This document shows positions 1,020 through 16,551 of a stretch of 64,000 nucleotides of DNA, in pieces. A program made the position numbers and the translations under genes. The stretch comes from a bacterium. GTDB taxonomy: Bacteria > Zhuqueibacterota > Zhuqueibacteria > Oceanimicrobiales > Oceanimicrobiaceae. Each line of letters starts with the position of its first letter. The first letter of the stretch is position 1. The stretch lies in the NCBI GenBank assembly GCA_046758365.1, contig JBHIAC010000002.1:3836-67835 (forward strand). The letters are read 5' to 3'. A model generated the notes under the pieces. It made no database searches and was not told where the DNA came from. It saw only the letters and a program-made list of their open reading frames with translations.

Positions 1020-3083
1020 GTGAGAAAGATGATGTTAGATAAATTTTTATACAATTTCCTAAAAAGAACCTCAGGGGTGATATTTATTTTAATAATAATT
1101 CTATTCATTTATATACCTACTAACTCTTATGCTCAATCAGGTGTAGGGGGTACCAAGAGCACATTTTTAAGTGTAGGGGCACGAGCACTGGCTTTAGGTA
1201 ATGCTTATGTTGCTCTTTCTGAGGATCCGACGGCTGTTTTCTGGAATCCGGCTGGTCTTGACTATTTAGAGAAAAAAAGCACCAGCTTTTACTATACAAG
1301 TTTGATTGCGGGTTCAAATTTTAGTTTTGTAGGATTTGTGTATCCCACGGTATCTATTGGTAGTTTTGGTTTTGGCTGGTTGAGATTAGGGACCGGGGAT
1401 ATTGAAGAAAGAGGTTCAGACGCTGAACCTGGAGCTAATTTTGATTTCAGTCAACAGCAATTTCTCTTTTCGTATGCCAAGCAACTGAAAAAGAGTTTCA
1501 GCATTGGTCTTACTGTAAAAATTGAGAGTTTCAGTTTTTCTATACAAAACCTCTCAGATTCGGGGGTTGGGGCAGATTTAGGGTTATTATATCGACCAGA
1601 TTTTGATAGTGCAATTTTACGGGACCTTTCATTAGGAATAAATATTCAAAACATCATAAATCCGAAAACTCGGTTGGTGGATATGTCTGAATCATCCCCT
1701 ATAAATTTCAAAATTGGCTTGGCTAAACCAGTTCGATTTGGGGAAGCACGCAATGCATTTACATTGCTGTTTGATATAAATAAAAGCGAAAGTGCACCTA
1801 TGATGTATAACTTGGGGGGCGAGTACTCTTTTCATAATCAAGCCATGTTACGAATAGGGGTAAATGATGGCCAAATTGCATTTGGCGCCGGCGCAAGCTA
1901 TAGTAATTTTCACATCGATTATTCTTTTGGTAAACTGTTTGATGGACCGGATTTTTCTGCAAACCATCGTTTTTCTGTTACTATTGAATTTGGTAAAGGT
2001 AAAACAGAGTTAATCCGTATTGCTCGCGAACGACGTGAAAGAGAAATGCGGCTACAAGTTGAGAATCAGATGTGGTTTTCACGGGAAATTGAATTTAACA
2101 ATAGTATGGAAGAAGGACGCGATAAATATTTTAACGGAGACTACCTGGGTGCATATGTAGACTTCTCAAATGCTTTTGAAGCAGCTAATACTCTTGTGGA
2201 AGTGGCTATGAGGTTAAGAGGTGAAAATATTCAAGACGAAAAAGCCAACATACGAGTTGAAACAGCGAATTCTGCGTTACAAGAATCCCGGACCATGTTA
2301 GAACTTGCCGATGCAAAACGTGATTCTGTTCAGAAAGAAGAGCAGAAACAAATAGTTTTGCAGGCGAAAAAATCGGCTTTGGAACAAGAACTGCAGGACT
2401 TTATTCTAGAGCATCGACAAAAAGGCAATGCCTTTTTCAAGAATGGCGACTTCACTAGAGCTATTAGAGAATGGCAACTAGCTTTAAATAGAATTGCAGC
2501 AAATAAAAGTAATAACTTACCTAACTGGGTCGAAGATGTAAGGCTGCAGATTATAAATGATATTAATACCACCGAAAAGCAACTACAAGGCAACATTAAA
2601 GAAAAGATTAGACAAGCTGACGCCTTAGCACGGAGAGGCGATTACGTTCAAGCCTTGGCTGTGTTAAATGAGTTAAGAGGTGCAGAGTTATCAGAAGAGG
2701 AACGGAGTACTATTAGGAGTAAAATTACAAAAATACAAACACAACTTAATTTTCAACAAAATTATGAGCAGGGTATTCGCCATTATGCTAATAAAGAATA
2801 CAAAAAAGCCATGGAATATTTTGAAAGGGCGCTAAGAATCAAATCCAAAGACCCGAGAGCACGTAAGTTTTTTGAAGACGCCAAAGCCCGGGCCCAGGCC
2901 AAAATTCAGGAAATGCCCCCTGATATACAAGCAAAGTATGTCCGTGCGATTCAGCTCTATCGTCAAAAAATGTTTAAAGAAGCACTGGAAATATTAGAAC
3001 AAATCCGAGTAAAGCAACCGTATAATAAACGAATTTTGGATTTGATTGATCGAGCAAAAGATCGTTTAAAGGAAAATAGATAG
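1020..3083 (+). CDS. PorV/PorQ-family outer-membrane beta-barrel fused to a C-terminal coiled-coil/TPR region
   Basis: Signal peptide, then VGARALALGNAYVALSEDPTAVFWNPAGL (PorV/FadL-like N-terminal motif); barrel ends NHRFSVTIEFG; helical TPR-like repeats follow. Confidence 0.8.
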   Translation: MRKMMLDKFLYNFLKRTSGVIFILIIILFIYIPTNSYAQSGVGGTKSTFLSVGARALALGNAYVALSEDPTAVFWNPAGLDYLEKKSTSFYYTSLIAGSNFSFVGFVYPTVSIGSFGFGWLRLGTGDIEERGSDAEPGANFDFSQQQFLFSYAKQLKKSFSIGLTVKIESFSFSIQNLSDSGVGADLGLLYRPDFDSAILRDLSLGINIQNIINPKTRLVDMSESSPINFKIGLAKPVRFGEARNAFTLLFDINKSESAPMMYNLGGEYSFHNQAMLRIGVNDGQIAFGAGASYSNFHIDYSFGKLFDGPDFSANHRFSVTIEFGKGKTELIRIARERREREMRLQVENQMWFSREIEFNNSMEEGRDKYFNGDYLGAYVDFSNAFEAANTLVEVAMRLRGENIQDEKANIRVETANSALQESRTMLELADAKRDSVQKEEQKQIVLQAKKSALEQELQDFILEHRQKGNAFFKNGDFTRAIREWQLALNRIAANKSNNLPNWVEDVRLQIINDINTTEKQLQGNIKEKIRQADALARRGDYVQALAVLNELRGAELSEEERSTIRSKITKIQTQLNFQQNYEQGIRHYANKEYKKAMEYFERALRIKSKDPRARKFFEDAKARAQAKIQEMPPDIQAKYVRAIQLYRQKMFKEALEILEQIRVKQPYNKRILDLIDRAKDRLKENR

Positions 3084-3091
3084 GTATTACA

Positions 3092-6000
3092 TTGTTTAAA
3101 AGGGTAGAAAAAGAACAATTAAAAGTACCGGCCCATATTGATTATTTGGGCGACTTACGCGATTTTGTCACCCAGGTTGGTAAAAAATATAGATTTTCAG
3201 ATAAGCTCATTAATGCATTTAAATTAGCTATAGACGAAGCCGCCACTAACATCATACGGCATGCCTACCGAGAAAATAATGGCTTTATTACTGTGCGTTC
3301 TATTGTAAAAGAGAACAGTCTTACCATATCACTCATTGACCAGGGGACTTATTTTGATCCAAAACGAGTTAAAGAACCAGATCTGAGGCGTTATATTGAT
3401 ATTGGGAAAAAAGGGGGCTTGGGCATTTTCATAATGCGCAAGGTAATGGATGAAATTGACTATCGCAGAACCGAAGAAGGTAATGAACTGAGAATAACCA
3501 AATATCGAGAAACCCCACAAAAGAAAAAACTTTTTACCACTGTGTCCTCTATTCCTCTTTCTATCAAAGCTAAATATTTCTTTCGGACTATTGCTATAAT
3601 TACTCTAATGATTACGGTGGGTTATTTTTATTTTTACATCAAAACAGATGATTATGTCATTTCTGAGTTAATTATTTCCGGCCGAGCTACCTGCAGTCAA
3701 ATAATAAACCGCATTAGTTCAGCACCAACAGAAGAGTTGGTGTTTATCGAAGATATTGTTCATCCTTTATATGAAGAAAATAAAGATAAAATCTACCGTT
3801 TATCTGTTGAAGATAGTACAGGAATTATTGTTTACAGTTCAAATTTGTCTGAAATGTTAAGGCAATTTATCCGTCCCAGTAGAGTTGAATTAATTGAACC
3901 AGGAGTTTATAGGTATTACTTAGTTCAGGGAGTAAAAGTCTTTGAATTTGAATATCCAATCAAAATAAAGGATACTAACAAATATTATGGAAAGACTCAT
4001 GTATTCCTGTCAACAGAATCGGCAGATAAAGCCATAAGTGCCATACGTCTTAATGACTTAAAATTAGCCTTGTTTATTTTAGGTCTTAGTACTACCGGTG
4101 TAGCAGTGTTGATTTATCTAGTTATGATTCCTTTCAGTAAACTCGCTGATTGGGTCAAGGAATTGGGTCACGGAGAAATTGATGATGAAATTGATATTGA
4201 TGCTTCCACTGAAATTGGAGAAATTGCTCAGGCATTTAGTGATATTACCCAAAAGTTTCGAGAATCTCAAAAAAACTTAGCTGATCAGGAACGTCTTCAG
4301 AAAGAGATGCAGGTAGCTCAAGAAATTCAACAAACCCTGCTCCCTATGGAGTTTCCTGAATTGGAAGGATATGAAATTGCCTCCTATTATGAAGCTGCGA
4401 AAGAGGTAGGCGGTGATTATTATGATTTTGTCGAGGTAGATAAAGATTCTTTGGGTATAGCGGTGGCTGACGTTTCTGGAAAAGGCGTTCCTGGGTCTCT
4501 TGTAATGACCATGATTCGAACGGCTCTTCGAACAGAAGCTCGGGGGGTTAAAGATGCTGCCGAAGTACTTTCTCGGGTAAATACATTTGTCAGTGGAGAC
4601 ATCAAAAAGGGTATGTTTGTCACTATTTTCTATTTAATAATTGACTCCAAAAAACGTCGTCTAAATTACGCCAGCGCCGGACACAACCCTATGATTTTAT
4701 ATAGAGGGAGTACGAAGAAAACTTACTATCTGAATCCAAAAGGATTTCCTATTGGAATTCAATTACCTCAAAGAGATATATTTCGTAATTATATTGAATC
4801 AGATACGATTCAATTAGCTGAAGATGATATCCTTCTGGTTTATACCGATGGTATAACAGAAGCTATGAACTCTAGACGAGAGCTTTTGGGTGAAGAACGT
4901 TTACTCAAGATATTAAGGGAATTTGGACATCTCCCAGTAAATTCTTTTGTGGACAAGCTGAAAGAAGGGATTTATTCCTTCACAGAGGGGAGTCCGCAGT
5001 TTGATGACATTACCTTAGTAGCGATTAAAGAAAAATCATCTCGAGAAAAAGATGAACTCCGAAGAGCAAAAGAAGCGCACAAATTAATTGGTGAAGAAAT
5101 GAGTATTCGAGAGGCCTGTGAAACCGTCGGTATTACAACTTACGCCTATTATAATAAATACAAACGCATCTTCGAAGAAGAAGGCATTGAATCTTTTGAA
5201 ATTGACCCAGATGTATCCGTAGAAGCAAAGCATCTTAGTATTGAAGAAAAAACCAGAATATTTGATATTATTGCCAGCCATCCGGAATATGGAGCCAGTC
5301 GAATTAGCACGGAACTTAATACAGAGAAGTATGGTTTTACCCAAATTAGCGAAAGTAAAATATACGAAGAGTTGGTAAGAAATAGACTAAACACGCGTCA
5401 ACTTAGGGAGGCATTTGTTGAGAAAGGTAAAAGGGGTCGCAGAAGACTAAAGCCACCTGGAACACCTCTGTTAACTCTTGATGGTAAGTTAATAATAGAT
5501 CGACAATTGGATATTGCAGAAAACGAAGAAAAGTTCACACCTCAAAACATTAGACCAAATGAAAAAGAGGAAACAACCGAAGATCAGGAAGTAAAAACTG
5601 ATCAACGCATTGAGACAAGTCATAAAACATTTGAACCTTCAATCACAGAAGAGAAAATTGATGAAACATCTGTTACTAATATCACGGAGTCAGAGATAGA
5701 AGCAGAAGCTCTAATTGATTCTTCCATCGAGGAGATTTTATCGAAAGATTATATAGAAGAAACAGAAACCCAAGATAAAGCGCCAGAGATGAGTACCGAA
5801 ATCATTAAAGAAGAAAACCAGAAAGAAGTTAGAGAAATGGAAGATTCTCAAGATTTAATTGAAGAATTTGTTCCAGAAACTAATTTATCTGAAGCAATTT
5901 CCGACTTAGATGAAGAACAGAATATTCTTTCACAATTTGAAGAAGAGATTCCTGAAACTTCACAAAATGATGAAATATCATTTGAAGAGCTTTTTGAAAA

Positions 6001-6727
6001 TGTCGATTTTTCAAATGATACTCATGAAGATAAGCTAAATTCTTCAGATATTGAAGAGTTGGTAGATGAAGACCTATCGACTTCTTCCGTAGAAGAATTA
6101 CTTGCCCATGATTCGATTGAGGATTTCAGTGCTAATACCGATATTACTTCTGAAGAAATAATTAGTTCTAACGTTGATAATGATGCAGATGAATTCGAGG
6201 AAGATAGTGTCTCGTTTTCCGATTTGCTCAAAACTTTAGATGATGAGATGGTCTATTTTTCAAAACAGTATGAAAATAACCAAAGTCAATCAAAGGATTT
6301 ACAAACCGTAAAGCATGATTCAGAAACAGAAGAACCTACTCAAGAGTTTGATAAATCTAGTACTCATTTAAATAAAAAAGAAATGTTATTAATAAGTGGA
6401 ATCAAATACTATAAGAATAAAGATTATGAAAATGCTATAAAAGAGTTTAAAAAAGTTATTGATATTTATCCCGATTTTAAAGAGGCTTATAGTATATTAG
6501 GAAACGCCTATTTTAGAAATCAAATGTACACCGAAGCTGCTACGGCTTATGAGAGAGTGAAGCAAATGGATCCCAATGATATAACGGCTTATGAAAATAT
6601 GGGAGTCATTCATGCAAATCGAGGAGAATATACCCAAGCGATAGAAGAATGGAAAAAAGTTCTTGAATTAAATCCAGAAAGAACCGATATAAAGAAAAAG
6701 ATCAAAAAAGCTTTACAGAAGATGTAA
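3092..6727 (+). CDS. Multidomain partner-switching protein: RsbW-like HATPase, 2 TM with periplasmic loop, HAMP, SpoIIE/PP2C phosphatase, HTH region, acidic linker, TPR
   Basis: LAIDEAATNIIRHAY, DQG, KGGLGIFIMRKVMDE (RsbW-type kinase); VGGDYYD, ADVSGKG, SAGHNP, YTDGITEA, DDITLV (PP2C); C-terminal TPRs. Confidence 0.9.
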   Translation: MFKRVEKEQLKVPAHIDYLGDLRDFVTQVGKKYRFSDKLINAFKLAIDEAATNIIRHAYRENNGFITVRSIVKENSLTISLIDQGTYFDPKRVKEPDLRRYIDIGKKGGLGIFIMRKVMDEIDYRRTEEGNELRITKYRETPQKKKLFTTVSSIPLSIKAKYFFRTIAIITLMITVGYFYFYIKTDDYVISELIISGRATCSQIINRISSAPTEELVFIEDIVHPLYEENKDKIYRLSVEDSTGIIVYSSNLSEMLRQFIRPSRVELIEPGVYRYYLVQGVKVFEFEYPIKIKDTNKYYGKTHVFLSTESADKAISAIRLNDLKLALFILGLSTTGVAVLIYLVMIPFSKLADWVKELGHGEIDDEIDIDASTEIGEIAQAFSDITQKFRESQKNLADQERLQKEMQVAQEIQQTLLPMEFPELEGYEIASYYEAAKEVGGDYYDFVEVDKDSLGIAVADVSGKGVPGSLVMTMIRTALRTEARGVKDAAEVLSRVNTFVSGDIKKGMFVTIFYLIIDSKKRRLNYASAGHNPMILYRGSTKKTYYLNPKGFPIGIQLPQRDIFRNYIESDTIQLAEDDILLVYTDGITEAMNSRRELLGEERLLKILREFGHLPVNSFVDKLKEGIYSFTEGSPQFDDITLVAIKEKSSREKDELRRAKEAHKLIGEEMSIREACETVGITTYAYYNKYKRIFEEEGIESFEIDPDVSVEAKHLSIEEKTRIFDIIASHPEYGASRISTELNTEKYGFTQISESKIYEELVRNRLNTRQLREAFVEKGKRGRRRLKPPGTPLLTLDGKLIIDRQLDIAENEEKFTPQNIRPNEKEETTEDQEVKTDQRIETSHKTFEPSITEEKIDETSVTNITESEIEAEALIDSSIEEILSKDYIEETETQDKAPEMSTEIIKEENQKEVREMEDSQDLIEEFVPETNLSEAISDLDEEQNILSQFEEEIPETSQNDEISFEELFENVDFSNDTHEDKLNSSDIEELVDEDLSTSSVEELLAHDSIEDFSANTDITSEEIISSNVDNDADEFEEDSVSFSDLLKTLDDEMVYFSKQYENNQSQSKDLQTVKHDSETEEPTQEFDKSSTHLNKKEMLLISGIKYYKNKDYENAIKEFKKVIDIYPDFKEAYSILGNAYFRNQMYTEAATAYERVKQMDPNDITAYENMGVIHANRGEYTQAIEEWKKVLELNPERTDIKKKIKKALQKM

Positions 6728-6772
6728 TTGTAAATAATTTACAAATCAATCAGAATTTATAGTTTGTTTCTA

Positions 6773-6801
6773 TTGACTTTTAATCTTAATTCTATTATAT
6801 T
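6773..6801 (+). promoter_or_regulatory. Sigma70-type promoter of the STAS gene
   Basis: TTGACT-17 nt-TATATT, then AGGAG RBS before ATG 6851. Confidence 0.6.
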
Positions 6802-6850
6802 TAAAACTATTATGTTAGTAATAATAAAATAACTTTACTAGGAGTTTTCC

Positions 6851-7546
6851 ATGGAAGGTATACAAGTATCAGTAGAAAAAGCTGGCTCGAAACAGAACAT
6901 TGCTGTAATAAAAGTTGGTGGGTATATAGATACTACCACTTCGGCTGAACTTGAGCATTCTTTATCTTCTATTTTAAAATCTAATTGTTATAATATAATT
7001 ATTGATTTAGGTAATGTGGATTACATCAGCAGTGCGGGCTGGGGATTATTTATAAGTGAAATTAAGGGTATTCGTGAAAAAGGTGGCGACCTGAAGTTGG
7101 TGCGAATGATACCTGATGTTTATGAAGTATTTGAACTTTTGGAGTTCCACTACATTCTTAAAGCCTTTGATCGGTTGCAAGAAGCTATTAGTGATTTTGA
7201 TCTTGCTGCACCATCCGAGTTGCCGCTAAAATCCCGAATCGTCAACGATAATAGAAGTAAAAGGGATGTGCATGTAGTATCCAAGACTGAAACCAATGTT
7301 TTGCAGGCGGAAGCTGATAAAGAAGCCGCTTTAGAGTCTGAAATAGAAACGATAGAAGAAAAAATCCGTCAAATTGTTATAGAAAATCCTGAAGCGGGTA
7401 CTTTGCAAATTATAAAAACACTTAACAGTCCTCGATTTGGTAATATAAAACTTGGTTGGTTTGAAATGAGAAAATATCTAAAGCAATTAAATATAGATTC
7501 CAAAAAGAAAAGACTTGCTTATTTCAAACAAAAAACTTTTAGCTAA
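6851..7546 (+). CDS. STAS anti-anti-sigma factor (RsbV/SpoIIAA-like) with an extra C-terminal HTH-like domain
   Basis: GYIDTTTS, IDLGNVDYISSAGWG (phosphoacceptor Ser motif); about 110 aa extension. Confidence 0.9.
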   Translation: MEGIQVSVEKAGSKQNIAVIKVGGYIDTTTSAELEHSLSSILKSNCYNIIIDLGNVDYISSAGWGLFISEIKGIREKGGDLKLVRMIPDVYEVFELLEFHYILKAFDRLQEAISDFDLAAPSELPLKSRIVNDNRSKRDVHVVSKTETNVLQAEADKEAALESEIETIEEKIRQIVIENPEAGTLQIIKTLNSPRFGNIKLGWFEMRKYLKQLNIDSKKKRLAYFKQKTFS

Positions 7547-11867: not shown

Positions 11868-11938
11868 TGGGGTGTCGTTCAACGGCAGGACACACGGCTC
11901 TGGACCGTGGAATCGGGGTTCGAATCCCTGCACCCCAG
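11868..11938 (+). tRNA. tRNA-Gln(CTG)
   Basis: Acceptor TGGGGTG/CACCCCA; CACGG-CTCTGGA-CCGTG; GGTTCGAATCC. Confidence 0.96.
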
Positions 11939-11944
11939 CTACCC

Positions 11945-12018
11945 GCGCCCGTAGCTCAATTGGATAGAGCATCTGACTTCGGATCAGAGGGTTGAGGGTT
12001 CGAGTCCTTCCGGGCGTG
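11945..12018 (+). tRNA. tRNA-Arg(TCG)
   Basis: Acceptor GCGCCCG/CGGGCGT; TCTGA-CTTCGGA-TCAGA; GGTTCGAGTCC. Confidence 0.95.
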
Positions 12019-12039
12019 CTAAAAAAAATCAATAACATA

Positions 12040-12066
12040 GGCTCACTTGTATAGTGAGCTTTTTTA
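12040..12066 (+). terminator. Intrinsic terminator after the tRNA pair
   Basis: GCTCACT-TGTAT-AGTGAGC hairpin followed by a T run. Confidence 0.8.
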
Positions 12067-12114: not shown

Positions 12115-12212
12115 CTTGACAAATTTGTAATAATTTGACATATTAAATTCGTTTCTGATTAAGGACAAAAAGTATGGATGATGAATCAGAGTTATCTTTC
12201 CTCTGACTTGAC
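12115..12212 (+). promoter_or_regulatory. Promoter plus leader hairpin upstream of the TIR-like gene (copy 1 of a repeated element)
   Basis: TTGACA-17 nt-CATATT, then TCAGAG...CTCTGA hairpin; homologous to 56156-56235 on the minus strand. Confidence 0.6.
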
Positions 12213-12245: not shown

Positions 12246-12752
12246 ATGAAAATTCCTGTTTTTGTTTCTTGCCCGACAACGCTTAACAGAGCGCAAGAAT
12301 CGGCTCGAAAAATTATTAATCAAGAGTTAGACCAGTTAGGTATCGAGCCTCGTGCATTGGGTCGAACCGATTATCCATCCGATTTCCCATTACGGGAAGT
12401 TTTAGTCATAGCAAAACATTGTTCTAGTGGAGTTATTCTTGGATTTACTCAGTTTTCTACTGATTCAGGAATATGGAAAGAAGGAACACCTGACGCAGAA
12501 CCAAATAATGAAACTTTAGCTTTTCCTACGTCTTGGAATCAGCTTGAAGCTGGAATCTTATTCTCGTTAGGCCTCCCTCTTCTGGTATTTAAGGAAGAAA
12601 ATATTTCAGGTGGCGCCTTTGACTCAGGAGTCACGGATGTTTTTATCCATAAAATGCCGATAGGAAGATTATCTGTTGAGAATAAAAAGGCATTACGAGA
12701 AGTATTTCTCAATTGGCAAAGAAAAGTCAGAGCTCATTATTATGGTGATTAG
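12246..12752 (+). CDS. TIR-like / nucleotide-hydrolase-fold protein, possible anti-phage component
   Basis: VFVS first strand, GVILGF strand, TSWNQLEAGILFSLGLPLLVF (W-x3-E catalytic-helix pattern). Confidence 0.55.
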   Translation: MKIPVFVSCPTTLNRAQESARKIINQELDQLGIEPRALGRTDYPSDFPLREVLVIAKHCSSGVILGFTQFSTDSGIWKEGTPDAEPNNETLAFPTSWNQLEAGILFSLGLPLLVFKEENISGGAFDSGVTDVFIHKMPIGRLSVENKKALREVFLNWQRKVRAHYYGD

Positions 12753-12924
12753 GGTAATAAAATTCCAGTGACTAATTTTGTGCCTTGCACTCCGAGACGC
12801 TAGAATACCTACTGCGGGAAAAGGCGGCACCGGTGAAAGCACGCAGTCCAAATTGATCGACCAGTCTGACACCTTAACCCAGAGACTCGAGTCACCAAAT
12901 TTTTCCAAACTTCTGAAATGAAAG

Positions 12925-13398
12925 ATGGCATTTAACAAATTTGAAGAATATAAATTCATAGCTTCAAGTAACCAGCACCTTTCAGAAAGACGTCAGGAGG
13001 CCACAAAGACCTATCTGAGTGTAAATACCGCTATTTTTGTGATTATAGCCTTTCTAATCAAAGACACACAACTTCAGGATTGGTGGTTAATAATTGCGCT
13101 TTTTCCTCTAACACTCACAGGTATTCTCTCGTGCTGGATTTGGAGCAAGATAATCACTCAATACAAAAAACTGATTGGTTGGCGTTACGATGAACTCATT
13201 AAAATTGAGGAAAGCATGAAGGAAGCTCACCATTTCTACAAAAAAGAAAAGGGACAGTTTTTTAAACAGCAGAACGGTAAGGAAAAGTTTGGCTTCTCAC
13301 GTCTGGAGGCATTACTCCCTACCATGTTCATGGCCTTGTACCTCATTTATTTTTTGGGGCTGTTATTTATAATAACATACAATCAATTTTGGAGGTAG
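12925..13398 (+). CDS. Small 3-TM membrane protein resembling the RipA/Rip1-type oligomeric pore family
   Basis: FEEYK...SERRQ.A...YLSVNTA, two TMs, W..II..YK.L......IE, third TM; pattern recalled, not searched. Confidence 0.55.
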   Translation: MAFNKFEEYKFIASSNQHLSERRQEATKTYLSVNTAIFVIIAFLIKDTQLQDWWLIIALFPLTLTGILSCWIWSKIITQYKKLIGWRYDELIKIEESMKEAHHFYKKEKGQFFKQQNGKEKFGFSRLEALLPTMFMALYLIYFLGLLFIITYNQFWR

Positions 13399-13401
13399 AA
13401 A

Positions 13402-16041
13402 TTGTCCGAAAATAAATTTCGAGTAAACTTGCGATTTGCCCAATTTGGGTCAAGCTTAAAATTCAAGGATATTATATCACTAACGTTCATTGGGTACAGT
13501 CTGGGATGGCTCCTTTCTTTTTACCTGGTTGCTTCATTTGTTCACCTTAATTTTGTAATATTGATTTTATTATTCCACGGATATTTCTGGTTTAAACTGG
13601 TTAACGAAATCCTACAAAAGATTGAGCCACCTGCTGAGCTCCTGCTTATTCTTTTTCTACTGATACACTTTGTCGACCTGGCTTTTTTGCGAATAGAGTT
13701 TGCCGCCTCGACATTTTGGAATCCTGTGATACAAATGCCCAGTTCGTTTTTAGGAATTCTGCAAATTATGGTATTGGCTTTATCAATTCTTATTTTCAGC
13801 TTGATTCTGGTAAAAAACAGCCAAGGTAAAAGAGGGGTCATTGTTTGGTATGTGTTGCTTGGTTTCATTGGAATCAACTTACTCAGGGCTGAAGACGATT
13901 CCTACCTTTTACTTTTTCAGTTTGTTTTATTTATTCTTCTTTTACGAAAAACCTCCTGGTTAGAAGAACTTACAAAATTAGAGTGCTGGACAGGTTTTCT
14001 GCTATTGTTTTTACTTTTTCAAGGAGTTTCTCTACTTGATCCATTTCAAGGTGCGAATACCAATCAGCTTGCTCAACAATTTATTTGGTACAGCGCACCT
14101 TTTTATATGTACTTATTATTCAAAATATATTTACTTGCGCTTCTCGTAAAAATTCCAGTAGTGCTTGTTTACAACCACGCACAGCTTTCGCGGAAATTAC
14201 GGATTTCCAGTCTTTTTCAATCCACATTTCCACAGGTCATTCATCTAATTATGTTGCTGATTATTTTTTACTTTTTCATTGCTGTTTGGCAGGCTGAAAA
14301 TGTGCGGCAGGCATTAATCAATCAGATAGAACAGGTAAAATCTGGCAAGGCGACCCCATCTCTTACCTATTTTAAAGGGGCTAAGACTTCTATTGGCTCT
14401 ACAATTTTTTACGGTTACCAACCGATAAACTTGTCAAATGAGTTGCCCCAGCAGGGAATTCTGGCTTTAGAGCGGGCCCCATCTGGGGAACTAGCCGATT
14501 ACAAGAATATAGATTATTTCTTCTTTTTCGATGCCGCTGAGGTTGCAGACGATTCAGTCTATTTTTTCAAGATAAATTCAAATTTCTTGGCGTCAGTGAC
14601 CGAAAATATGTCCGTATTAGCTGGCACCCAACTGCTATCTTATCCGTATTTGCTTGCCCAATGGGAGACTTTTATTTACAATAGAAAAATCTTGATGCAG
14701 GATAATGAAATTAGAATATTTCCGTTCAGCTTGACTCCTCAAAAGTCAGCAAATTTTATTTCAGTCGGAGTCGAGGCTGGCACAAAACCGCGTTATGCTT
14801 TTGAAGAACGGAGGATGCGACTGGAAGACGCTGAAATAAATTTCGGCAAATTGGATGAAAATAAGTTCACGGTTGGGAGAGTTTTAGTCCCGCTTTGGAA
14901 TGCGAATTTTGAGCATGTTGGTGATTTTGCTTTTGATGTCTTGCTGGTGCCGAGTTTATCTATTTTTAATTCGCTTCTATTTAGGTATATAGTGTTTTTT
15001 ATTATTGTTTACTTATTGGTAAATCTCTTTGTCGTCCGTCGAGCTGTAAAATTTGGCGCCCGGATTAATCGCAGGATTGTGCAGAAATTTAATCAACTCA
15101 AAGACGGTATTCGGGAAATATCATCTGGTAATCTGGATTATAAGGTCAAGCTCGAGGGCGAAGATGAATTTGTGGAATTGGCCGAAAGGTTCAATCAAAT
15201 GGGGGAAAAGCTAAAACAGACCATTGAGGAAGTTCGCGAAAAAGAACGCCTTGAACATGAATTAAATATTGCCCGTCAGGTTCAGCTCAGTTTACTTCCA
15301 AGTCATCTGCCCCAGGTACAAGGATATCAAGTTGCCGCTACCCTTAAAACGGCTACAGAGGTGGGAGGTGATTTTTACGATATTATACCTTTAAATAACA
15401 ACAAATTTCTATTCACGATTGGTGACGTTTCCGGGAAAAGTACGTCGGCCGCTTTTTATATGGCACAGTGCATAAGTCTCATTCGGTATTCTCCTCAATT
15501 TACCTATGAACCTCGTGAAATTATCCTGCGTTTGAATGAGTATTTTGCAGATCCGATGGTTGATCGCCAGATGTTTGTAACTGCAATTGTCGGCATGTTG
15601 GATGCAGCCAAAAGCACCATACGGTTAGTTAGAGCCGGGCACACTATGCCGATTCTCATCCCAGGACGAAAGAAAGAAGAAATTCGTGAATTACAGCCCG
15701 GTGGTCTGGGAATTGGTTTGGCAAGAAGCGGCCAAATGCTCGAAAAAGTTCTTAAAGTGGAGCAAGTTACCATTCGTTCCGGCGATATGGTGGTGTTATA
15801 TACCGATGGTGTGGTAGAGGCCGCACGCTCGTCTGCTGAAATAGATAGTAATAATGGCGAAGATGAGGAGACTAAGCAGTTTTACGGGGAGGAGCGGTTA
15901 ATGAATTTGCTGAAGGGAATCCGCGGAAAAAGCGCCACAAAAATCATGCAGGAGCTCACCAATGATTTGGAATCATTTTATGGAGGAAACGCGCCGGTGG
16001 ATGATTATACGTTGTTGATTATTCAGAAAACGAGCAGATGA
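13402..16041 (+). CDS. Polytopic membrane sensor with HAMP and SpoIIE/PP2C phosphatase
   Basis: Many N-terminal TMs; HAMP (GEDEFVELAERFNQM); VGGDFYD, GDVSGK, RAGH, YTDGVVEA, DDYTLL. Confidence 0.9.
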   Translation: MSENKFRVNLRFAQFGSSLKFKDIISLTFIGYSLGWLLSFYLVASFVHLNFVILILLFHGYFWFKLVNEILQKIEPPAELLLILFLLIHFVDLAFLRIEFAASTFWNPVIQMPSSFLGILQIMVLALSILIFSLILVKNSQGKRGVIVWYVLLGFIGINLLRAEDDSYLLLFQFVLFILLLRKTSWLEELTKLECWTGFLLLFLLFQGVSLLDPFQGANTNQLAQQFIWYSAPFYMYLLFKIYLLALLVKIPVVLVYNHAQLSRKLRISSLFQSTFPQVIHLIMLLIIFYFFIAVWQAENVRQALINQIEQVKSGKATPSLTYFKGAKTSIGSTIFYGYQPINLSNELPQQGILALERAPSGELADYKNIDYFFFFDAAEVADDSVYFFKINSNFLASVTENMSVLAGTQLLSYPYLLAQWETFIYNRKILMQDNEIRIFPFSLTPQKSANFISVGVEAGTKPRYAFEERRMRLEDAEINFGKLDENKFTVGRVLVPLWNANFEHVGDFAFDVLLVPSLSIFNSLLFRYIVFFIIVYLLVNLFVVRRAVKFGARINRRIVQKFNQLKDGIREISSGNLDYKVKLEGEDEFVELAERFNQMGEKLKQTIEEVREKERLEHELNIARQVQLSLLPSHLPQVQGYQVAATLKTATEVGGDFYDIIPLNNNKFLFTIGDVSGKSTSAAFYMAQCISLIRYSPQFTYEPREIILRLNEYFADPMVDRQMFVTAIVGMLDAAKSTIRLVRAGHTMPILIPGRKKEEIRELQPGGLGIGLARSGQMLEKVLKVEQVTIRSGDMVVLYTDGVVEAARSSAEIDSNNGEDEETKQFYGEERLMNLLKGIRGKSATKIMQELTNDLESFYGGNAPVDDYTLLIIQKTSR

Positions 16042-16131
16042 AAACGTAGAGTATAGGTCTGAAATGCCTAATAAGCTTTCTCACATTTCTTTGTCATGTA
16101 GTCCTATTGGACATACATGACCTACATTCAT

Positions 16132-16281
16132 TCACACCACCATACTCAACGCTATCCGCTCGCGCTCCACATCCACCTTGAGCCCCTTCACATCAATTAC
16201 CTTCCCCACCGAAACCAAATCCAAAGGATTTTTAACAAATTTTTTCGACATTTGGCTTTTGTGCATTAAGTCGTCATTTTT
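16132..16281 (-). pseudogene. 3' remnant of a Tex/YhgF-like S1 domain, copy 1
   Basis: Minus strand reads KNDDLMHKSQMSKKFVKNPLDLVSVGKVIDVKGLKVDVERERIALSMVV*. Confidence 0.75.
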
Positions 16282-16369
16282 AAAACACTCTAAATTCAAT
16301 GCCATTTTATCAAGATACTTTTATATGCAAATGTCATATAATCCTTATCGGACATACATGACCTATGAT

Positions 16370-16489
16370 TCATACCACTATACTCAACCCTATCCTTTCC
16401 AGCTCTACATCGATCTTAAGCACCTTCACTTCAATCACATCCCTTACCGAAACCAGATCCAAAGGATTTTTGACTTTCAAATCTTCCAT
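16370..16489 (-). pseudogene. 3' remnant of a Tex/YhgF-like S1 domain, copy 2
   Basis: Minus strand reads MEDLKVKNPLDLVSVRDVIEVKVLKIDVELERIGLSIVV*. Confidence 0.7.
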
Positions 16490-16551
16490 TCGTAAACTGA
16501 AAGATTTTCTTCGTCCCTGGCTTTGGAAGTTAAAAGCCCCAATGCATGAAT

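What the first reader, a model, noticed from the sequence alone, without database searches (positions are those of the whole stretch)
12246..13398. TIR-like enzyme plus 3-TM pore-like protein directly downstream of a tRNA cluster: candidate two-gene anti-phage system
Seen: two small co-oriented genes right after the tRNA-Arg terminator, with their own promoter. The first has a TIR-like VFVS...SWNQLEAG pattern; the second resembles small oligomeric membrane pore proteins (RipA/Rip1 type, from recall). Established: TIR domains make or destroy nucleotide signals in Thoeris, CBASS and Pycsar, and small TM proteins are common death effectors. No SIR2/SLOG, Macro or cyclase gene is present, so the pair does not fit those systems as I know them. 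Inference: signal generator plus membrane effector.
Basis: partly seen in the sequence, partly recalled or inferred. Interest (0 to 1): 0.72.

Follow-up and report, generated by a model that had tools for sequence, protein, structure and literature searches.

The report
TIR-like enzyme with membrane-pore partner
Two small adjacent genes encode an unannotated enzyme-like protein with a TIR/nucleoside-glycosidase fold and a three-helix membrane protein of a family that elsewhere sits beside bacterial TIR immune genes, so the pair looks like a new variant of Thoeris-type anti-phage signalling, though no function has been tested.

Summary
Both genes are real and intact: ORF-A at 12246-12752 (168 aa) and ORF-B at 12925-13398 (157 aa), just after the tRNA-Arg terminator.

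**ORF-A.** It matches no Pfam, NCBIfam or PADLOC model. It belongs to a large family spread across many phyla (1646 hits). Its model has a TIR/NDT-type fold; the best PDB match is the MilB CMP N-glycosidase, followed by NDT, DNPH1, SARM1 and TIR-STING. It carries an invariant WxxxE motif (W97, E101).

**ORF-B.** It is a clear member of Pfam 8xMP (PF24838).

**Linkage.**
- On 4 of 6 plasmid loci, an 8xMP gene lies directly after a ThsB-type TIR gene.
- In 80 genome loci, ORF-A relatives lie within 2 kb of a SLATT/DUF4231 membrane effector in 15 and of 8xMP in 1. They are often next to ThsB TIR, caspase or CHAT genes, and are sometimes fused to SLATT, TIR or CHAT.
- At least six ORF-A+SLATT pairs sit among housekeeping genes with no canonical TIR, as the pair does here.

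**Reading.** The best fit is a Thoeris-like two-gene cassette in which ORF-A takes the TIR's place. Whether ORF-A generates a signal, acts as an effector or senses one is not settled. The exact ORF-A+8xMP pairing is rare. Defence has not been shown.

The parts
11868..12019 (+). tRNA-Gln(CTG) and tRNA-Arg(TCG), the upstream boundary of the pair
   Evidence: ARAGORN; Rfam tRNA at 55 and 66 bits
12039..12070 (+). Terminator-like hairpin plus T-run that closes the tRNA unit
   Evidence: 9-pair stem with 4 GC pairs and a TTTTATTTTA tail
12116..12144 (+). Promoter-like site (TTGACA, 17 nt, CATATT, extended TG) 100 nt upstream of ORF-A
   Evidence: 10 of 12 matches. The number of such sites in the region is not above shuffles.
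12246..12752 (+). ORF-A, 168 aa: a single-domain TIR/NDT-fold protein of an unannotated family. Invariant residues are F6, S8, G66, W97, E101, P111, G123 and F125. A variable beta-hairpin insert spans residues 70-93.
   Evidence: no family or PDB sequence match; family size; conservation; AF2 pLDDT 86.8; fold matches; ESM Atlas; entropy by segment
12753..12924 (+). 172-bp spacer between the two genes, with no terminator-like site and no Rfam family
12925..13398 (+). ORF-B, 157 aa: a member of Pfam PF24838 (8xMP, octameric membrane protein family). It has an N-terminal cytosolic helix, a TM1-TM2 hairpin, a conserved basic cytosolic segment and a C-terminal TM3.
   Evidence: E 1.6e-21, 77 bits against a cut-off of 30; 21 close relatives, all PF24838; AF2 pLDDT 80.2; no PDB fold match
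13402..16041 (+). Context gene: a membrane HAMP-SpoIIE (PP2C) phosphatase. Its TTG start lies 4 nt after the ORF-B stop, with a GGAGG inside the end of ORF-B. It is possibly co-transcribed and is not shown to belong to the system.

Best explanation
The pair is a self-contained, horizontally spread two-gene conflict (anti-phage) cassette of the Thoeris type.

ORF-A is a divergent member of the TIR / nucleoside-2-deoxyribosyltransferase assemblage of Rossmann-like N-glycosidases. It occupies the place that a ThsB TIR protein holds upstream of 8xMP genes elsewhere.

Inferred mechanism:
- On infection, ORF-A uses its WxxxE glutamate (E101) to cleave or rearrange NAD+ or a related nucleotide into a small signal. 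The variable hairpin (residues 70-93) would serve as the sensing surface.
- The signal binds the conserved basic cytosolic segments of ORF-B.
- ORF-B is an oligomeric three-helix 8xMP membrane protein. Once bound, it opens or disrupts the inner membrane and stops the infected cell.

What is shown: the fold class, the conserved motif, the family memberships, and recurrent gene neighbourhoods and fusions.

What is inferred: catalysis, the nature of the signal, direct activation of ORF-B, and defence itself.
For: **ORF-A fold and motif.**
- AF2 model: pLDDT 86.8, pTM 0.81.
- Foldseek against the PDB: the best matches are MilB/BcmB CMP N-glycosidases (E 8e-5, TM 0.57-0.62). These are followed by NDT, DNPH1, TIR-STING and SARM1 TIR (E about 1e-3, TM about 0.5).
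- ESM Atlas: the nearest named clusters are 'putative nucleoside 2-deoxyribosyltransferase' (0.97), CAP12-PCTIR_TIR (0.90) and TIR_2 (0.85).
- W97 and E101 are invariant in 40 of 40 sequences, at the start of the third helix. A C-helix WxxxE with a catalytic Glu is the TIR NADase motif (PMC10641520, passages read).
- The beta3 and WxxxE segments are the most conserved (0.98 and 1.04 bits of entropy). The hairpin is among the most variable (2.99 bits).

**ORF-B.**
- Pfam 8xMP at 77 bits.
- Of 6 plasmid 8xMP loci, 4 have a ThsB_TIR gene immediately upstream: L083, L084, L085 and L081. One more (L087) has a TIR 2.5 kb away.

**Linkage of ORF-A to membrane effectors.**
- In 80 genome loci, a DUF4231/SLATT gene lies within 2 kb in 15 and nowhere in the outer flanks (0 hits in 520 kb of outer flank against 299 kb of inner flank). 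Pfam confirmed 11 of the 11 tested.
- 8xMP lies 433 bp away in L069.
- On Halorubrum plasmid pHLAC01, an ORF-A homologue (hhalign probability 100%), two ThsB_TIR genes and an 8xMP gene lie within 2.7 kb.
- Six ORF-A+SLATT pairs (L005, L010, L014, L044, L053, L062), and also L069, have no Pfam TIR within 3.5 kb and mostly housekeeping neighbours. They are two-gene cassettes like the one in the window.
- On the ORF-A tree, the TM-partner label needs 17 changes for 18 rows, and at least 8 are forced by well-supported branches. The juxtaposition has therefore been gained or lost many times.

**Fusions.** ORF-A is found fused to DUF4231 (P0153, P0292), TIR_2 (P0144, P0221), CHAT, trypsin and pentapeptide repeats.

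**Precedent.** TIR+SLATT is the validated type VII Thoeris, which signals through cADPR. Type V uses a ring-forming effector with three TM helices (bioRxiv 10.64898/2025.12.03.692087, sections 5, 6 and 8 read).
Against: - ORF-A matches no sequence profile of TIR, ThsB_TIR, NDT or DUF4062: 0 Pfam families at E<=1 for ORF-A and for all 40 members; hhalign to neighbouring ThsB_TIRs gave probability 3%; hhalign to a DUF4062 neighbour gave 0.3%.
- The fold-search scores are moderate. Low-TM caspase hits are interleaved with the NDT and TIR hits.
- The exact ORF-A+8xMP pairing occurs in only 1 of 80 genome loci. The three nearest relatives of the window's ORF-A (L001-L003) lack 8xMP.
- By my tally, 48 of 80 loci show no conflict-type neighbour. 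ORF-A therefore often stands alone.
- The two genes are 172 bp apart, while ORF-B abuts the SpoIIE phosphatase gene by 4 nt.
- The window is not a defence island, and PADLOC finds nothing.
- In six loci a canonical ThsB_TIR is present as well.
- Published CMP-hydrolase-like domains in this setting are effectors: ThsI and the NIR NADase. Fusion to proteases is also typical of sensor domains. ORF-A may therefore not be the signal generator.
Confidence: 0.45

Rival explanations
1. ORF-A is not the signal generator. It is either an effector or a signal receptor of TIR signalling. As an effector it would be a NADase or nucleotide glycosidase, like the CMP-hydrolase-like ThsI of type VIII Thoeris or the NIR/DUF4062 domain. 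As a receptor it would resemble SLOG in ThsA. On this view the window holds two downstream components, ORF-A and the 8xMP pore. They would depend on a TIR encoded elsewhere in the genome, or would be an orphaned remnant.
For: - The best structural match is to CMP N-glycosidases, the same annotation that is given to ThsI. ThsI and SLATT respond to the same signal and occasionally share one TIR operon (preprint section 8).
- TIR-SLATT-ORF-A triads of exactly that layout occur in L015, L028, L037 and L064, and with a different gene order or orientation in L071 and L079.
- DUF4062 'CMP hydrolase' domains proved to be NADase effectors with a TIR-like Glu.
- ORF-A is fused to CHAT, trypsin, SLATT and TIR_2, as sensor domains of effectors usually are.
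Against: - At least six ORF-A+SLATT pairs, plus L069 and the window, have no canonical TIR nearby. Two output modules without an input is the less economical reading.
- ORF-A lacks the TPR part described for ThsI and matches no DUF4062 profile.
- A lone receptor cannot explain the 48 loci where ORF-A stands alone.
Confidence: 0.25
2. The adjacency in this window is incidental. ORF-A is a stand-alone mobile gene, as it is in most genomes. ORF-B is an independent membrane protein, perhaps expressed together with the downstream HAMP-SpoIIE phosphatase.
For: - 8xMP is absent from 79 of 80 ORF-A loci.
- The nearest ORF-A relatives have other neighbours.
- There is a 172-bp gap before ORF-B but only 4 nt between ORF-B and the SpoIIE gene, with a GGAGG in between.
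- There is no composition anomaly and there are no att-like repeats of the tRNA end.
Against: - ORF-A and 8xMP lie close together in two further unrelated replicons: L069 (an actinomycete MAG) and the Halorubrum plasmid.
- Both families independently associate with ThsB TIR genes.
- ORF-A has a strong, distance-dependent association with the analogous SLATT effectors.
- No terminator-like site separates the two genes.
Confidence: 0.2
3. ORF-A is a housekeeping nucleotide-salvage enzyme, a nucleoside deoxyribosyltransferase or nucleotide N-glycosidase, with no role in conflict.
For: - The fold matches MilB, NDT and DNPH1.
- One Atlas cluster is auto-named 'putative nucleoside 2-deoxyribosyltransferase'.
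- Many neighbours are housekeeping genes.
Against: - ORF-A proteins share 52-76% identity across archaeal MAGs and more than a dozen bacterial phyla. The tree does not follow taxonomy: the window groups with Thermoplasmata and Paludibacter MAGs, with SH-aLRT support of 96.
- By my tally, 32 of 80 loci have SLATT, 8xMP, TIR, caspase, CHAT, Shedu or SIR2-type neighbours.
- ORF-A is fused to TIR, SLATT and CHAT.
- There is no Pfam NDT match.
Confidence: 0.1

Closest known systems
Type VII Thoeris: ThsB TIR + ThsH SLATT, cADPR signal (Yirmiya et al., bioRxiv 10.64898/2025.12.03.692087; abstract and sections 5, 6 and 8 read)
   Same: A small Rossmann-like protein with a WxxxE-type glutamate lies next to a small oligomerising membrane effector. 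ORF-A relatives sit within 2 kb of SLATT/DUF4231 genes in 15 of 80 loci, and six of those loci also carry a ThsB_TIR.
   Different: ORF-A is not a Pfam TIR. The partner here is 8xMP, which shows no profile similarity to DUF4231 (hhalign probability 0.5%). No canonical TIR is present in the window.
Type VIII Thoeris effector ThsI (CMP-hydrolase-like domain + TPR), same preprint
   Same: It has a MilB-like 'CMP hydrolase' fold annotation. It is reported to share operons with TIR and SLATT in rare cases, as ORF-A does here.
   Different: ORF-A is a single 168-aa domain without TPR. I had no ThsI sequence to compare, and the preprint's supplements are closed. ThsI is an effector, not a generator.
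NIR / DUF4062 NADase domain (bioRxiv 10.64898/2026.09.04.749371; passages read)
   Same: Its structural neighbours are CMP hydrolase, ribosyltransferases and TIRs, and it has a conserved catalytic Glu. It was formerly annotated as CMP hydrolase.
   Different: 0 of 40 ORF-A members match PF13271 at E<=1. hhalign to a DUF4062-bearing neighbour gave probability 0.3%. NIR is described as the effector domain of Avs2, Vulcan and Vesta, not as a free 168-aa protein.
ThsB_TIR (PF08937) + 8xMP (PF24838) two-gene cassettes on plasmids
   Same: The membrane partner belongs to the same family, in the same order and with the same spacing logic (TIR then 8xMP, overlapping or adjacent) in L083, L084, L085 and L081.
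   Different: There the upstream gene is a bona fide ThsB_TIR. I found no paper that names this cassette: searches for '8xMP', 'PF24838' and 'octameric membrane protein' gave nothing relevant. It may be among the untested effector types of Figure 1C and Table S1 of the Thoeris preprint, which I could not see.
Type V Thoeris effector ThsF (DUF2270, three TM helices, predicted ring)
   Same: Analogous to ORF-B: a small protein with three TM helices, predicted to form a homo-oligomeric ring with basic pockets.
   Different: ORF-B gives no DUF2270 hit at E<=1. It is a different Pfam family.
MilB / BcmB CMP N-glycosidases and DNPH1 (NDT superfamily)
   Same: These are the best PDB fold matches to the ORF-A model.
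   Different: 12-13% identity, and no sequence-profile match to any PDB chain. They act in antibiotic biosynthesis or nucleotide catabolism.
Rip1 ring-interacting pore
   Same: A small protein that forms membrane pores in phage defence.
   Different: In the review passage I read (PMC13434031), Rip1 is a single protein that acts as both sensor and effector. It has an N-terminal amphipathic helix, and its C-terminal half binds phage terminase or portal rings. It is mostly encoded on prophages in Proteobacteria. ORF-B is a three-helix 8xMP protein. Homology could not be tested because I had no Rip1 sequence.

Membership tests
TIR domain (Pfam TIR, TIR_2, ThsB_TIR, CAP12-PCTIR_TIR) | Match to a TIR sequence profile | tested here: not met
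   0 Pfam families at E<=1 for ORF-A and for all 40 aligned members. hhalign against 9 neighbouring ThsB_TIRs gave probability 3%, with only beta1 aligned.
TIR domain (Pfam TIR, TIR_2, ThsB_TIR, CAP12-PCTIR_TIR) | Flavodoxin-like beta-alpha fold resembling solved TIR domains | tested here: met
   AF2 model with pLDDT 86.8. Matches to TIR-STING 9lmq and SARM1 TIR 6o0v/8gni at E about 5e-4 to 1.6e-3, TM 0.5-0.6. NDT-family hits score slightly better.
TIR domain (Pfam TIR, TIR_2, ThsB_TIR, CAP12-PCTIR_TIR) | C-helix WxxxE motif with a catalytic Glu | tested here: met
   W97-N-Q-L-E101 lies at the start of helix 96-107 and is invariant in 40 of 40 sequences. The motif definition comes from PMC10641520. 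A structural superposition of E101 on a known catalytic Glu was not available.
TIR domain (Pfam TIR, TIR_2, ThsB_TIR, CAP12-PCTIR_TIR) | NAD+ cleavage or cyclase activity | not testable with these tools
   Needs an enzyme assay.
Nucleoside 2-deoxyribosyltransferase superfamily (MilB, NDT, DNPH1) | Fold similarity to solved members | tested here: met
   Top PDB matches are 4jem, 4ohr and 4jel (MilB) at E 8e-5 to 1.5e-4 and TM 0.57-0.63. Also 4jen (BcmB), 2a0k and 8qc0 (NDT) and 9i9q (DNPH1).
Nucleoside 2-deoxyribosyltransferase superfamily (MilB, NDT, DNPH1) | Match to the Pfam Nuc_deoxyrib_tr profile or to PDB sequences | tested here: not met
   no hit.
NIR / DUF4062 | Match to PF13271 | tested here: not met
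   0 of 40 members. hhalign to the DUF4062 N-terminus of L075:7734-8333 gave probability 0.3%.
8xMP (PF24838) | Pfam score above the gathering threshold over the whole domain | tested here: met
   77 bits against a cut-off of 30, covering residues 6-147 of 157 and profile positions 1-135 of 136. All 21 close relatives carry PF24838.
8xMP (PF24838) | Octameric assembly in the membrane | not tested
   Eight copies exceed the size limit of the complex tool. Only the monomer was modelled.
SLATT / DUF4231 | Profile similarity of ORF-B to SLATT-clan proteins | tested here: not met
   No SLATT or DUF4231 hit at E<=1. hhalign of A4 against A5 gave probability 0.5%.
Thoeris system | A ThsB TIR gene adjacent to an effector gene | tested here: not met
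   No Pfam or HMM TIR anywhere in the 64-kb window. ORF-A is only TIR-like.
Thoeris system | The effector family is a recurrent neighbour of ThsB TIR genes | tested here: met
   8xMP lies directly after ThsB_TIR in 4 of 6 plasmid loci.
Thoeris system | Phage defence through a TIR-made ADPR-derived signal | not testable with these tools
   Needs phage challenge and metabolite analysis.
Known defence systems in PADLOC-DB v2.0.0 | Match to any PADLOC model | tested here: not met
   0 families at E<=1 for ORF-A, ORF-B and the SpoIIE gene. The library dates from 2023, before Thoeris types V-XI.
Rip1 | Homology to Rip1 | not testable with these tools
   No Rip1 sequence or model was on hand. The architecture described in PMC13434031 differs.

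The most novel reading that the evidence does not exclude
The ORF-A family is an unrecognised sister lineage to the TIR and NIR immune domains, with no model in the Pfam, NCBIfam or PADLOC libraries scanned here. It is widespread: more than 1600 sequences, from Halobacteria and Thermoplasmata MAGs to Acidobacteriota, Actinomycetota, Planctomycetota and Nitrospirota. On its own it would replace ThsB as the infection-triggered maker of a nucleotide signal, possibly a new molecule. That signal would gate interchangeable small membrane effectors (SLATT, 8xMP and others). This would define a TIR-less branch of Thoeris-type immunity.
Probability: 0.3. Interest if true: 0.8.

Novelty: new variant of a known kind. 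Interest (0 to 1): 0.62.

Why it matters
TIR-based signalling was recently reported to be present in about 8% of prokaryotic genomes. Its catalogue is built by starting from recognisable TIR genes.

A family that has the TIR/NDT fold and the WxxxE motif, but escapes every TIR profile, would be invisible to such screens. It keeps the same company as TIR genes (SLATT, 8xMP, caspase and CHAT neighbours and fusions).

If ORF-A makes or senses a signal, three things follow:
- the set of immune nucleotide enzymes grows;
- the uncharacterised 8xMP family gains a function;
- very compact two-gene cassettes become available for study (about 1.15 kb here).

If ORF-A is instead a NADase or nucleotide-glycosidase effector, it adds another branch beside TIR, SIR2, SEFIR and NIR.

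Tried and rejected
- **Complex prediction.** The ORF-A + ORF-B complex job returned 'no answer' with score 0.00. It is neither evidence for nor against binding.
- **Sequence searches of the PDB.** ORF-A alone and the 40-sequence profile gave nothing. ORF-B gave only chance-level hits.
- **Fold search of the ORF-B model.** No match better than E 0.4.
- **Profile comparisons that found no relation:**
  - ORF-A against ThsB_TIR.
  - 8xMP against DUF4231.
  - ORF-A against the third gene of the Novosphingobium cassette.
  - ORF-A against the TPR-S/MAP3K_TRAF_bd neighbour in L078.
  - ORF-A against a DUF4062 neighbour.
  - ORF-A against an NDT-motif protein next to L001. That alignment did place E on E and G on G, but at probability 0.5%.
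- **Phage genomes.** No ORF-A homologue in 50,697 records. The only 8xMP hit is the Haematospirillum plasmid, filed there as well. A phage-borne counter-defence role is therefore not supported.
- **Signs of insertion.** There are no att-like repeats of the tRNA 3' end and no GC anomaly, so a recent insertion at the tRNA is not visible.
- **The 172-bp spacer.** Rfam found nothing in it.
- **Literature.** Searches for '8xMP', 'octameric membrane protein' and 'PF24838' found no paper on the family.
- **Rhodococcus pRHL1 (L088).** This locus has no annotation, and I did not resolve its neighbours.
Full report
**1. The observation.**

The window holds two co-oriented intact ORFs: ORF-A at 12246-12752 (168 aa) and ORF-B at 12925-13398 (157 aa).
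- They follow tRNA-Gln and tRNA-Arg and a terminator-like hairpin at 12039-12061.
- A good sigma-70-like site lies at 12116-12144. However, such sites are no more frequent here than in shuffles (4 against 5.1 +/- 2.2).
- Both N-termini coincide with those of their families.
- The rest of the 64-kb window is housekeeping: Obg, DprA, GltX, partner-switching SpoIIE/STAS genes, DegP, RND efflux pumps and cytochromes.
- The window holds no TIR, SIR2, SLOG, Macro or cyclase gene.
- There is no GC anomaly and there are no att-like repeats.

**2. ORF-A.**

*Annotation and family size.*
- It matches nothing in Pfam, NCBIfam or PADLOC at E<=1, and no PDB sequence.
- It nevertheless has 1646 relatives at E<=1e-3 in the 90%-clustered protein collection. 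The best 120 are 61-100% identical, carry no precomputed Pfam domain, and are named only 'hypothetical protein' where a name is given.
- It also has 812 cluster representatives at the 50% identity level.
- A genome scan found 169 loci, and the best 80 were kept. They come from Thermoplasmata MAGs, Bacteroidota, Acidobacteriota, Verrucomicrobiota, Planctomycetota, Chloroflexota, Actinomycetota, Nitrospirota, Pseudomonadota, Ignavibacteriota and others, at 52-76% identity.
- The protein tree does not follow taxonomy. The window's copy groups with two Thermoplasmata MAGs and a Paludibacter MAG (SH-aLRT 96).

*Conservation.*
- Across 40 members down to 30% identity, the invariant residues are F6, S8, G66, W97, E101, P111, G123 and F125.
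- The beta3 and WxxxE segments are the most conserved. A beta-hairpin insert (residues 70-93) and a loop (138-153) are the most variable.

*Structure.*
- The AF2 model (pLDDT 86.8) is a beta-alpha Rossmann-like domain.
- Its best PDB matches are the CMP N-glycosidases MilB and BcmB (E 8e-5 to 4e-4, TM 0.5-0.6).
- NDT, DNPH1, TIR-STING and SARM1 TIR follow at E about 1e-3. Low-TM caspase hits also appear.
- The ESM Atlas places it nearest to clusters named 'putative nucleoside 2-deoxyribosyltransferase', CAP12-PCTIR_TIR and TIR_2.
[quoted passage not shown] In that motif the Glu is catalytic (PMC10641520, passages).
- Profile comparison with neighbouring ThsB_TIR proteins, a DUF4062 protein and an NDT-motif protein is not significant.
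- ORF-A is therefore a separate family inside the TIR/NDT fold class. It is not a detectable member of any named family.

**3. ORF-B.**
- It is a clear member of Pfam PF24838, '8xMP, octameric membrane protein family' (77 bits against a cut-off of 30).
- Only 21 close relatives were found through the word index, and all of them carry PF24838.
- The model (pLDDT 80.2) shows a long N-terminal helix running into TM1, then TM2 running into a cytosolic helix, then a conserved loop (GKEKFGFSRLE), then TM3.
- The conserved residues include R22, R23, K10, K81, R87, K119 and K121. That these could line an anion-binding pocket is my inference.
- No solved structure resembles the model.
- It shows no profile similarity to DUF4231/SLATT.
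- I found no paper on the family.

**4. Are the two linked?**

*The exact pairing is rare.* Among 80 ORF-A loci, only L069 has an 8xMP gene, 433 bp away and divergent.

*Three lines of evidence still tie the families together.*

(a) 8xMP pairs with ThsB-type TIR genes on plasmids.
- tblastn of ORF-B found 5 records.
- In Synechococcus, Novosphingobium and Haematospirillum plasmids, a 130-137-aa ThsB_TIR gene directly precedes the 8xMP gene. The two are 1 nt apart or overlap.
- In Acaryochloris a TIR gene lies 2.5 kb upstream. In the Megaera plasmid there is none.

(b) All three families occur together on one archaeal plasmid. On Halorubrum lacusprofundi pHLAC01, a true ORF-A homologue (hhalign probability 100%, E 1e-46) lies in one 2.7-kb cluster with two ThsB_TIR genes and an 8xMP gene.

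(c) ORF-A relatives associate strongly with SLATT/DUF4231, the analogous small membrane effector.
- There are 15 of 80 loci with SLATT/DUF4231, all within 2 kb. None lies in the 520 kb of outer flanks. Pfam confirmed 11 of the 11 tested.
- Six loci form ThsB_TIR / SLATT / ORF-A triads: L015, L028, L037, L064, L071 and L079.
- Three have a SLOG-like-SLATT protein next to ORF-A (L041, L062) or fused to it (L075, which is P0292).
- Six SLATT loci (L005, L010, L014, L044, L053, L062), and also L069, have no Pfam TIR within 3.5 kb. They sit among tRNA synthetases, shikimate and haem genes, TonB receptors and the like. These are TIR-less two-gene cassettes like the one in the window.

*Evidence from the tree.* On the ORF-A tree, the 18 copies with a TM partner need 17 changes of state, and at least 8 are forced by well-supported branches. 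The arrangement has therefore formed or dissolved many times and is not one inherited block.

*Other recurrent neighbours.*
- Caspase: 9 loci, 9 of 9 confirmed by Pfam.
- CHAT: 7 loci confirmed by Pfam, plus L069.
- Single cases of Shedu SduA_C, SIR2_2-TPR, a RelA/SpoT-type protein, TPR-S and FRG.
- By my tally, 32 of 80 loci have a conflict-type neighbour and 48 do not. MutS/MutL, SOD, EF-P, TsaD and iPGM are typical of the latter group.

**5. Fusions.**
- Of the 30 longest representatives scanned, 2 add a C-terminal TIR_2, 1 a DUF4231/SLATT, 2 an N-terminal CHAT and 2 pentapeptide repeats. One has a weak HTH hit, and 22 have no Pfam partner.
- A search for longer proteins gave 10 results: 1 TIR, 1 SLOG-like-SLATT (seen on 2 contigs), 5 pentapeptide, 2 CHAT and 1 trypsin-like.

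**6. What is known.**
- The preprint by Yirmiya et al. (abstract and sections 5, 6 and 8 read) validates Thoeris types V-XI.
- Type VII is TIR + SLATT (ThsH). Type VIII is TIR + a 'CMP hydrolase'-TPR effector (ThsI). Both respond to canonical cADPR, and rare operons contain both effectors.
- Type V uses a ring-forming effector with three TM helices (DUF2270).
- The preprint also lists untested effector types, including various TM proteins. These appear in a figure and tables that I could not see.
- A second preprint (passages read) shows that DUF4062 'CMP hydrolase' domains are NADases (NIR) with a TIR-like catalytic Glu. Their structural neighbours are CMP hydrolase, ribosyltransferases and TIRs, the same profile I obtain for ORF-A.
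This is a different architecture.

**7. Interpretation.**

ORF-A behaves, in fold, motif, neighbours and fusions, like a TIR-class domain that sequence profiles miss. ORF-B belongs to a family that partners with ThsB TIRs. The most economical reading of the TIR-less two-gene cassettes, the window's included, is a Thoeris-like module in which ORF-A supplies the nucleotide chemistry and the membrane protein executes (confidence 0.45).

The same data allow three other readings:
- ORF-A is an effector or receptor downstream of a TIR encoded elsewhere (0.25). The triads, the ThsI and NIR precedents and the protease fusions point this way.
- The adjacency here is incidental (0.2). This fits the rare exact pairing, the 172-bp gap, and the fact that ORF-B abuts the SpoIIE gene.
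- ORF-A is a housekeeping salvage enzyme (0.1).

Catalysis, the signal, gating of ORF-B and defence are all inferred.

**8. Limits.**
- Gene calls in the fetched loci are my own crude longest-ORF calls, which are noisy in high-GC MAGs.
- Neighbour counts depend on HMMs built from few sequences and on Pfam at E<=1e-4.
- No structural alignment was available to place E101 on a known catalytic residue.
- The bioRxiv supplements that may already list these families were not readable.

Noticed in passing
window 13385-13410: The HAMP-SpoIIE phosphatase gene (13402-16041) starts at a TTG 4 nt after the ORF-B stop, with a GGAGG inside the last codons of ORF-B. ORF-B and the phosphatase may therefore be co-transcribed or translationally coupled.
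   Followed up: partly
window 3092-7543: There is a partner-switching set upstream: a 1211-aa HATPase_c_2 / SpoIIE / TPR protein and a STAS-domain protein. With the SpoIIE gene after ORF-B, two PP2C-type phosphatases flank the tRNA/ORF-A/ORF-B stretch.
   Followed up: no
window 16100-16500: The intergenic stretch between the SpoIIE and DegP-like genes has strongly negative GC skew (-0.35 to -0.39). Overlapping ORFs there encode near-repeated peptides (...PHRNQIQRIF...), which suggests a direct repeat.
   Followed up: no
L003 5507-6004: In the Paludibacter MAG, one of the window's nearest ORF-A relatives, the gene overlapping the ORF-A start by 4 nt encodes a 165-aa coiled-coil protein with a single C-terminal TM helix and no Pfam hit. 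This may be another kind of small membrane partner. Two GmrSD genes lie downstream.
   Followed up: partly
L001 6768-7829: The gene 261 bp after the closest ORF-A homologue (76% identity) encodes a 353-aa protein. Its C-terminal part carries a classic NDT-like motif (...NPNVMFELGYAQGCGKP...) yet has no Pfam hit. hhalign to ORF-A is not significant, although it aligns E with E101.
   Followed up: partly
L075 5128-7725 (P0292): This is an 865-aa ORF joining an ORF-A domain, a SLOG-like domain and a SLATT-like TM region. It is followed by a DUF4062-TIR_2-SPOR protein. The ORF-A part loses its usual C-terminal helix at the junction, so a frameshift artefact cannot be excluded, though the protein is recorded on 2 contigs.
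   Followed up: partly
L037 3563-6516; L077 2371-4744: These are long operons that combine ThsB_TIR + caspase (a type IV Thoeris-like layout) with further modules and end in ORF-A. L037 reads TIR-caspase-TIR-SLATT-ORF-A. L077 reads TIR-caspase-SLOG-like-ORF-A.
   Followed up: partly
L081 (Halorubrum lacusprofundi pHLAC01) 2757-6280: This archaeal plasmid cluster reads 8xMP <- ThsB_TIR | ThsB_TIR (282 aa) -> ORF-A homologue -> a short protein with a weak adenylate/guanylate cyclase match (Pfam E 1e-3), next to an ISH3 transposase.
   Followed up: partly
L084 (Novosphingobium plasmid p4) 5465-5938: A third conserved-looking gene (157 aa, no Pfam hit, unrelated to ORF-A by hhalign) directly follows the ThsB_TIR-8xMP pair. 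A further TIR_2 gene and a HEPN gene flank the cassette.
   Followed up: partly
L041 8250-12405: Next to the SLOG-like-SLATT gene that converges on ORF-A lie a REC + CAP12-PCTIR_TIR protein and a multi-GAF histidine kinase. This is a two-component-regulated TIR.
   Followed up: no
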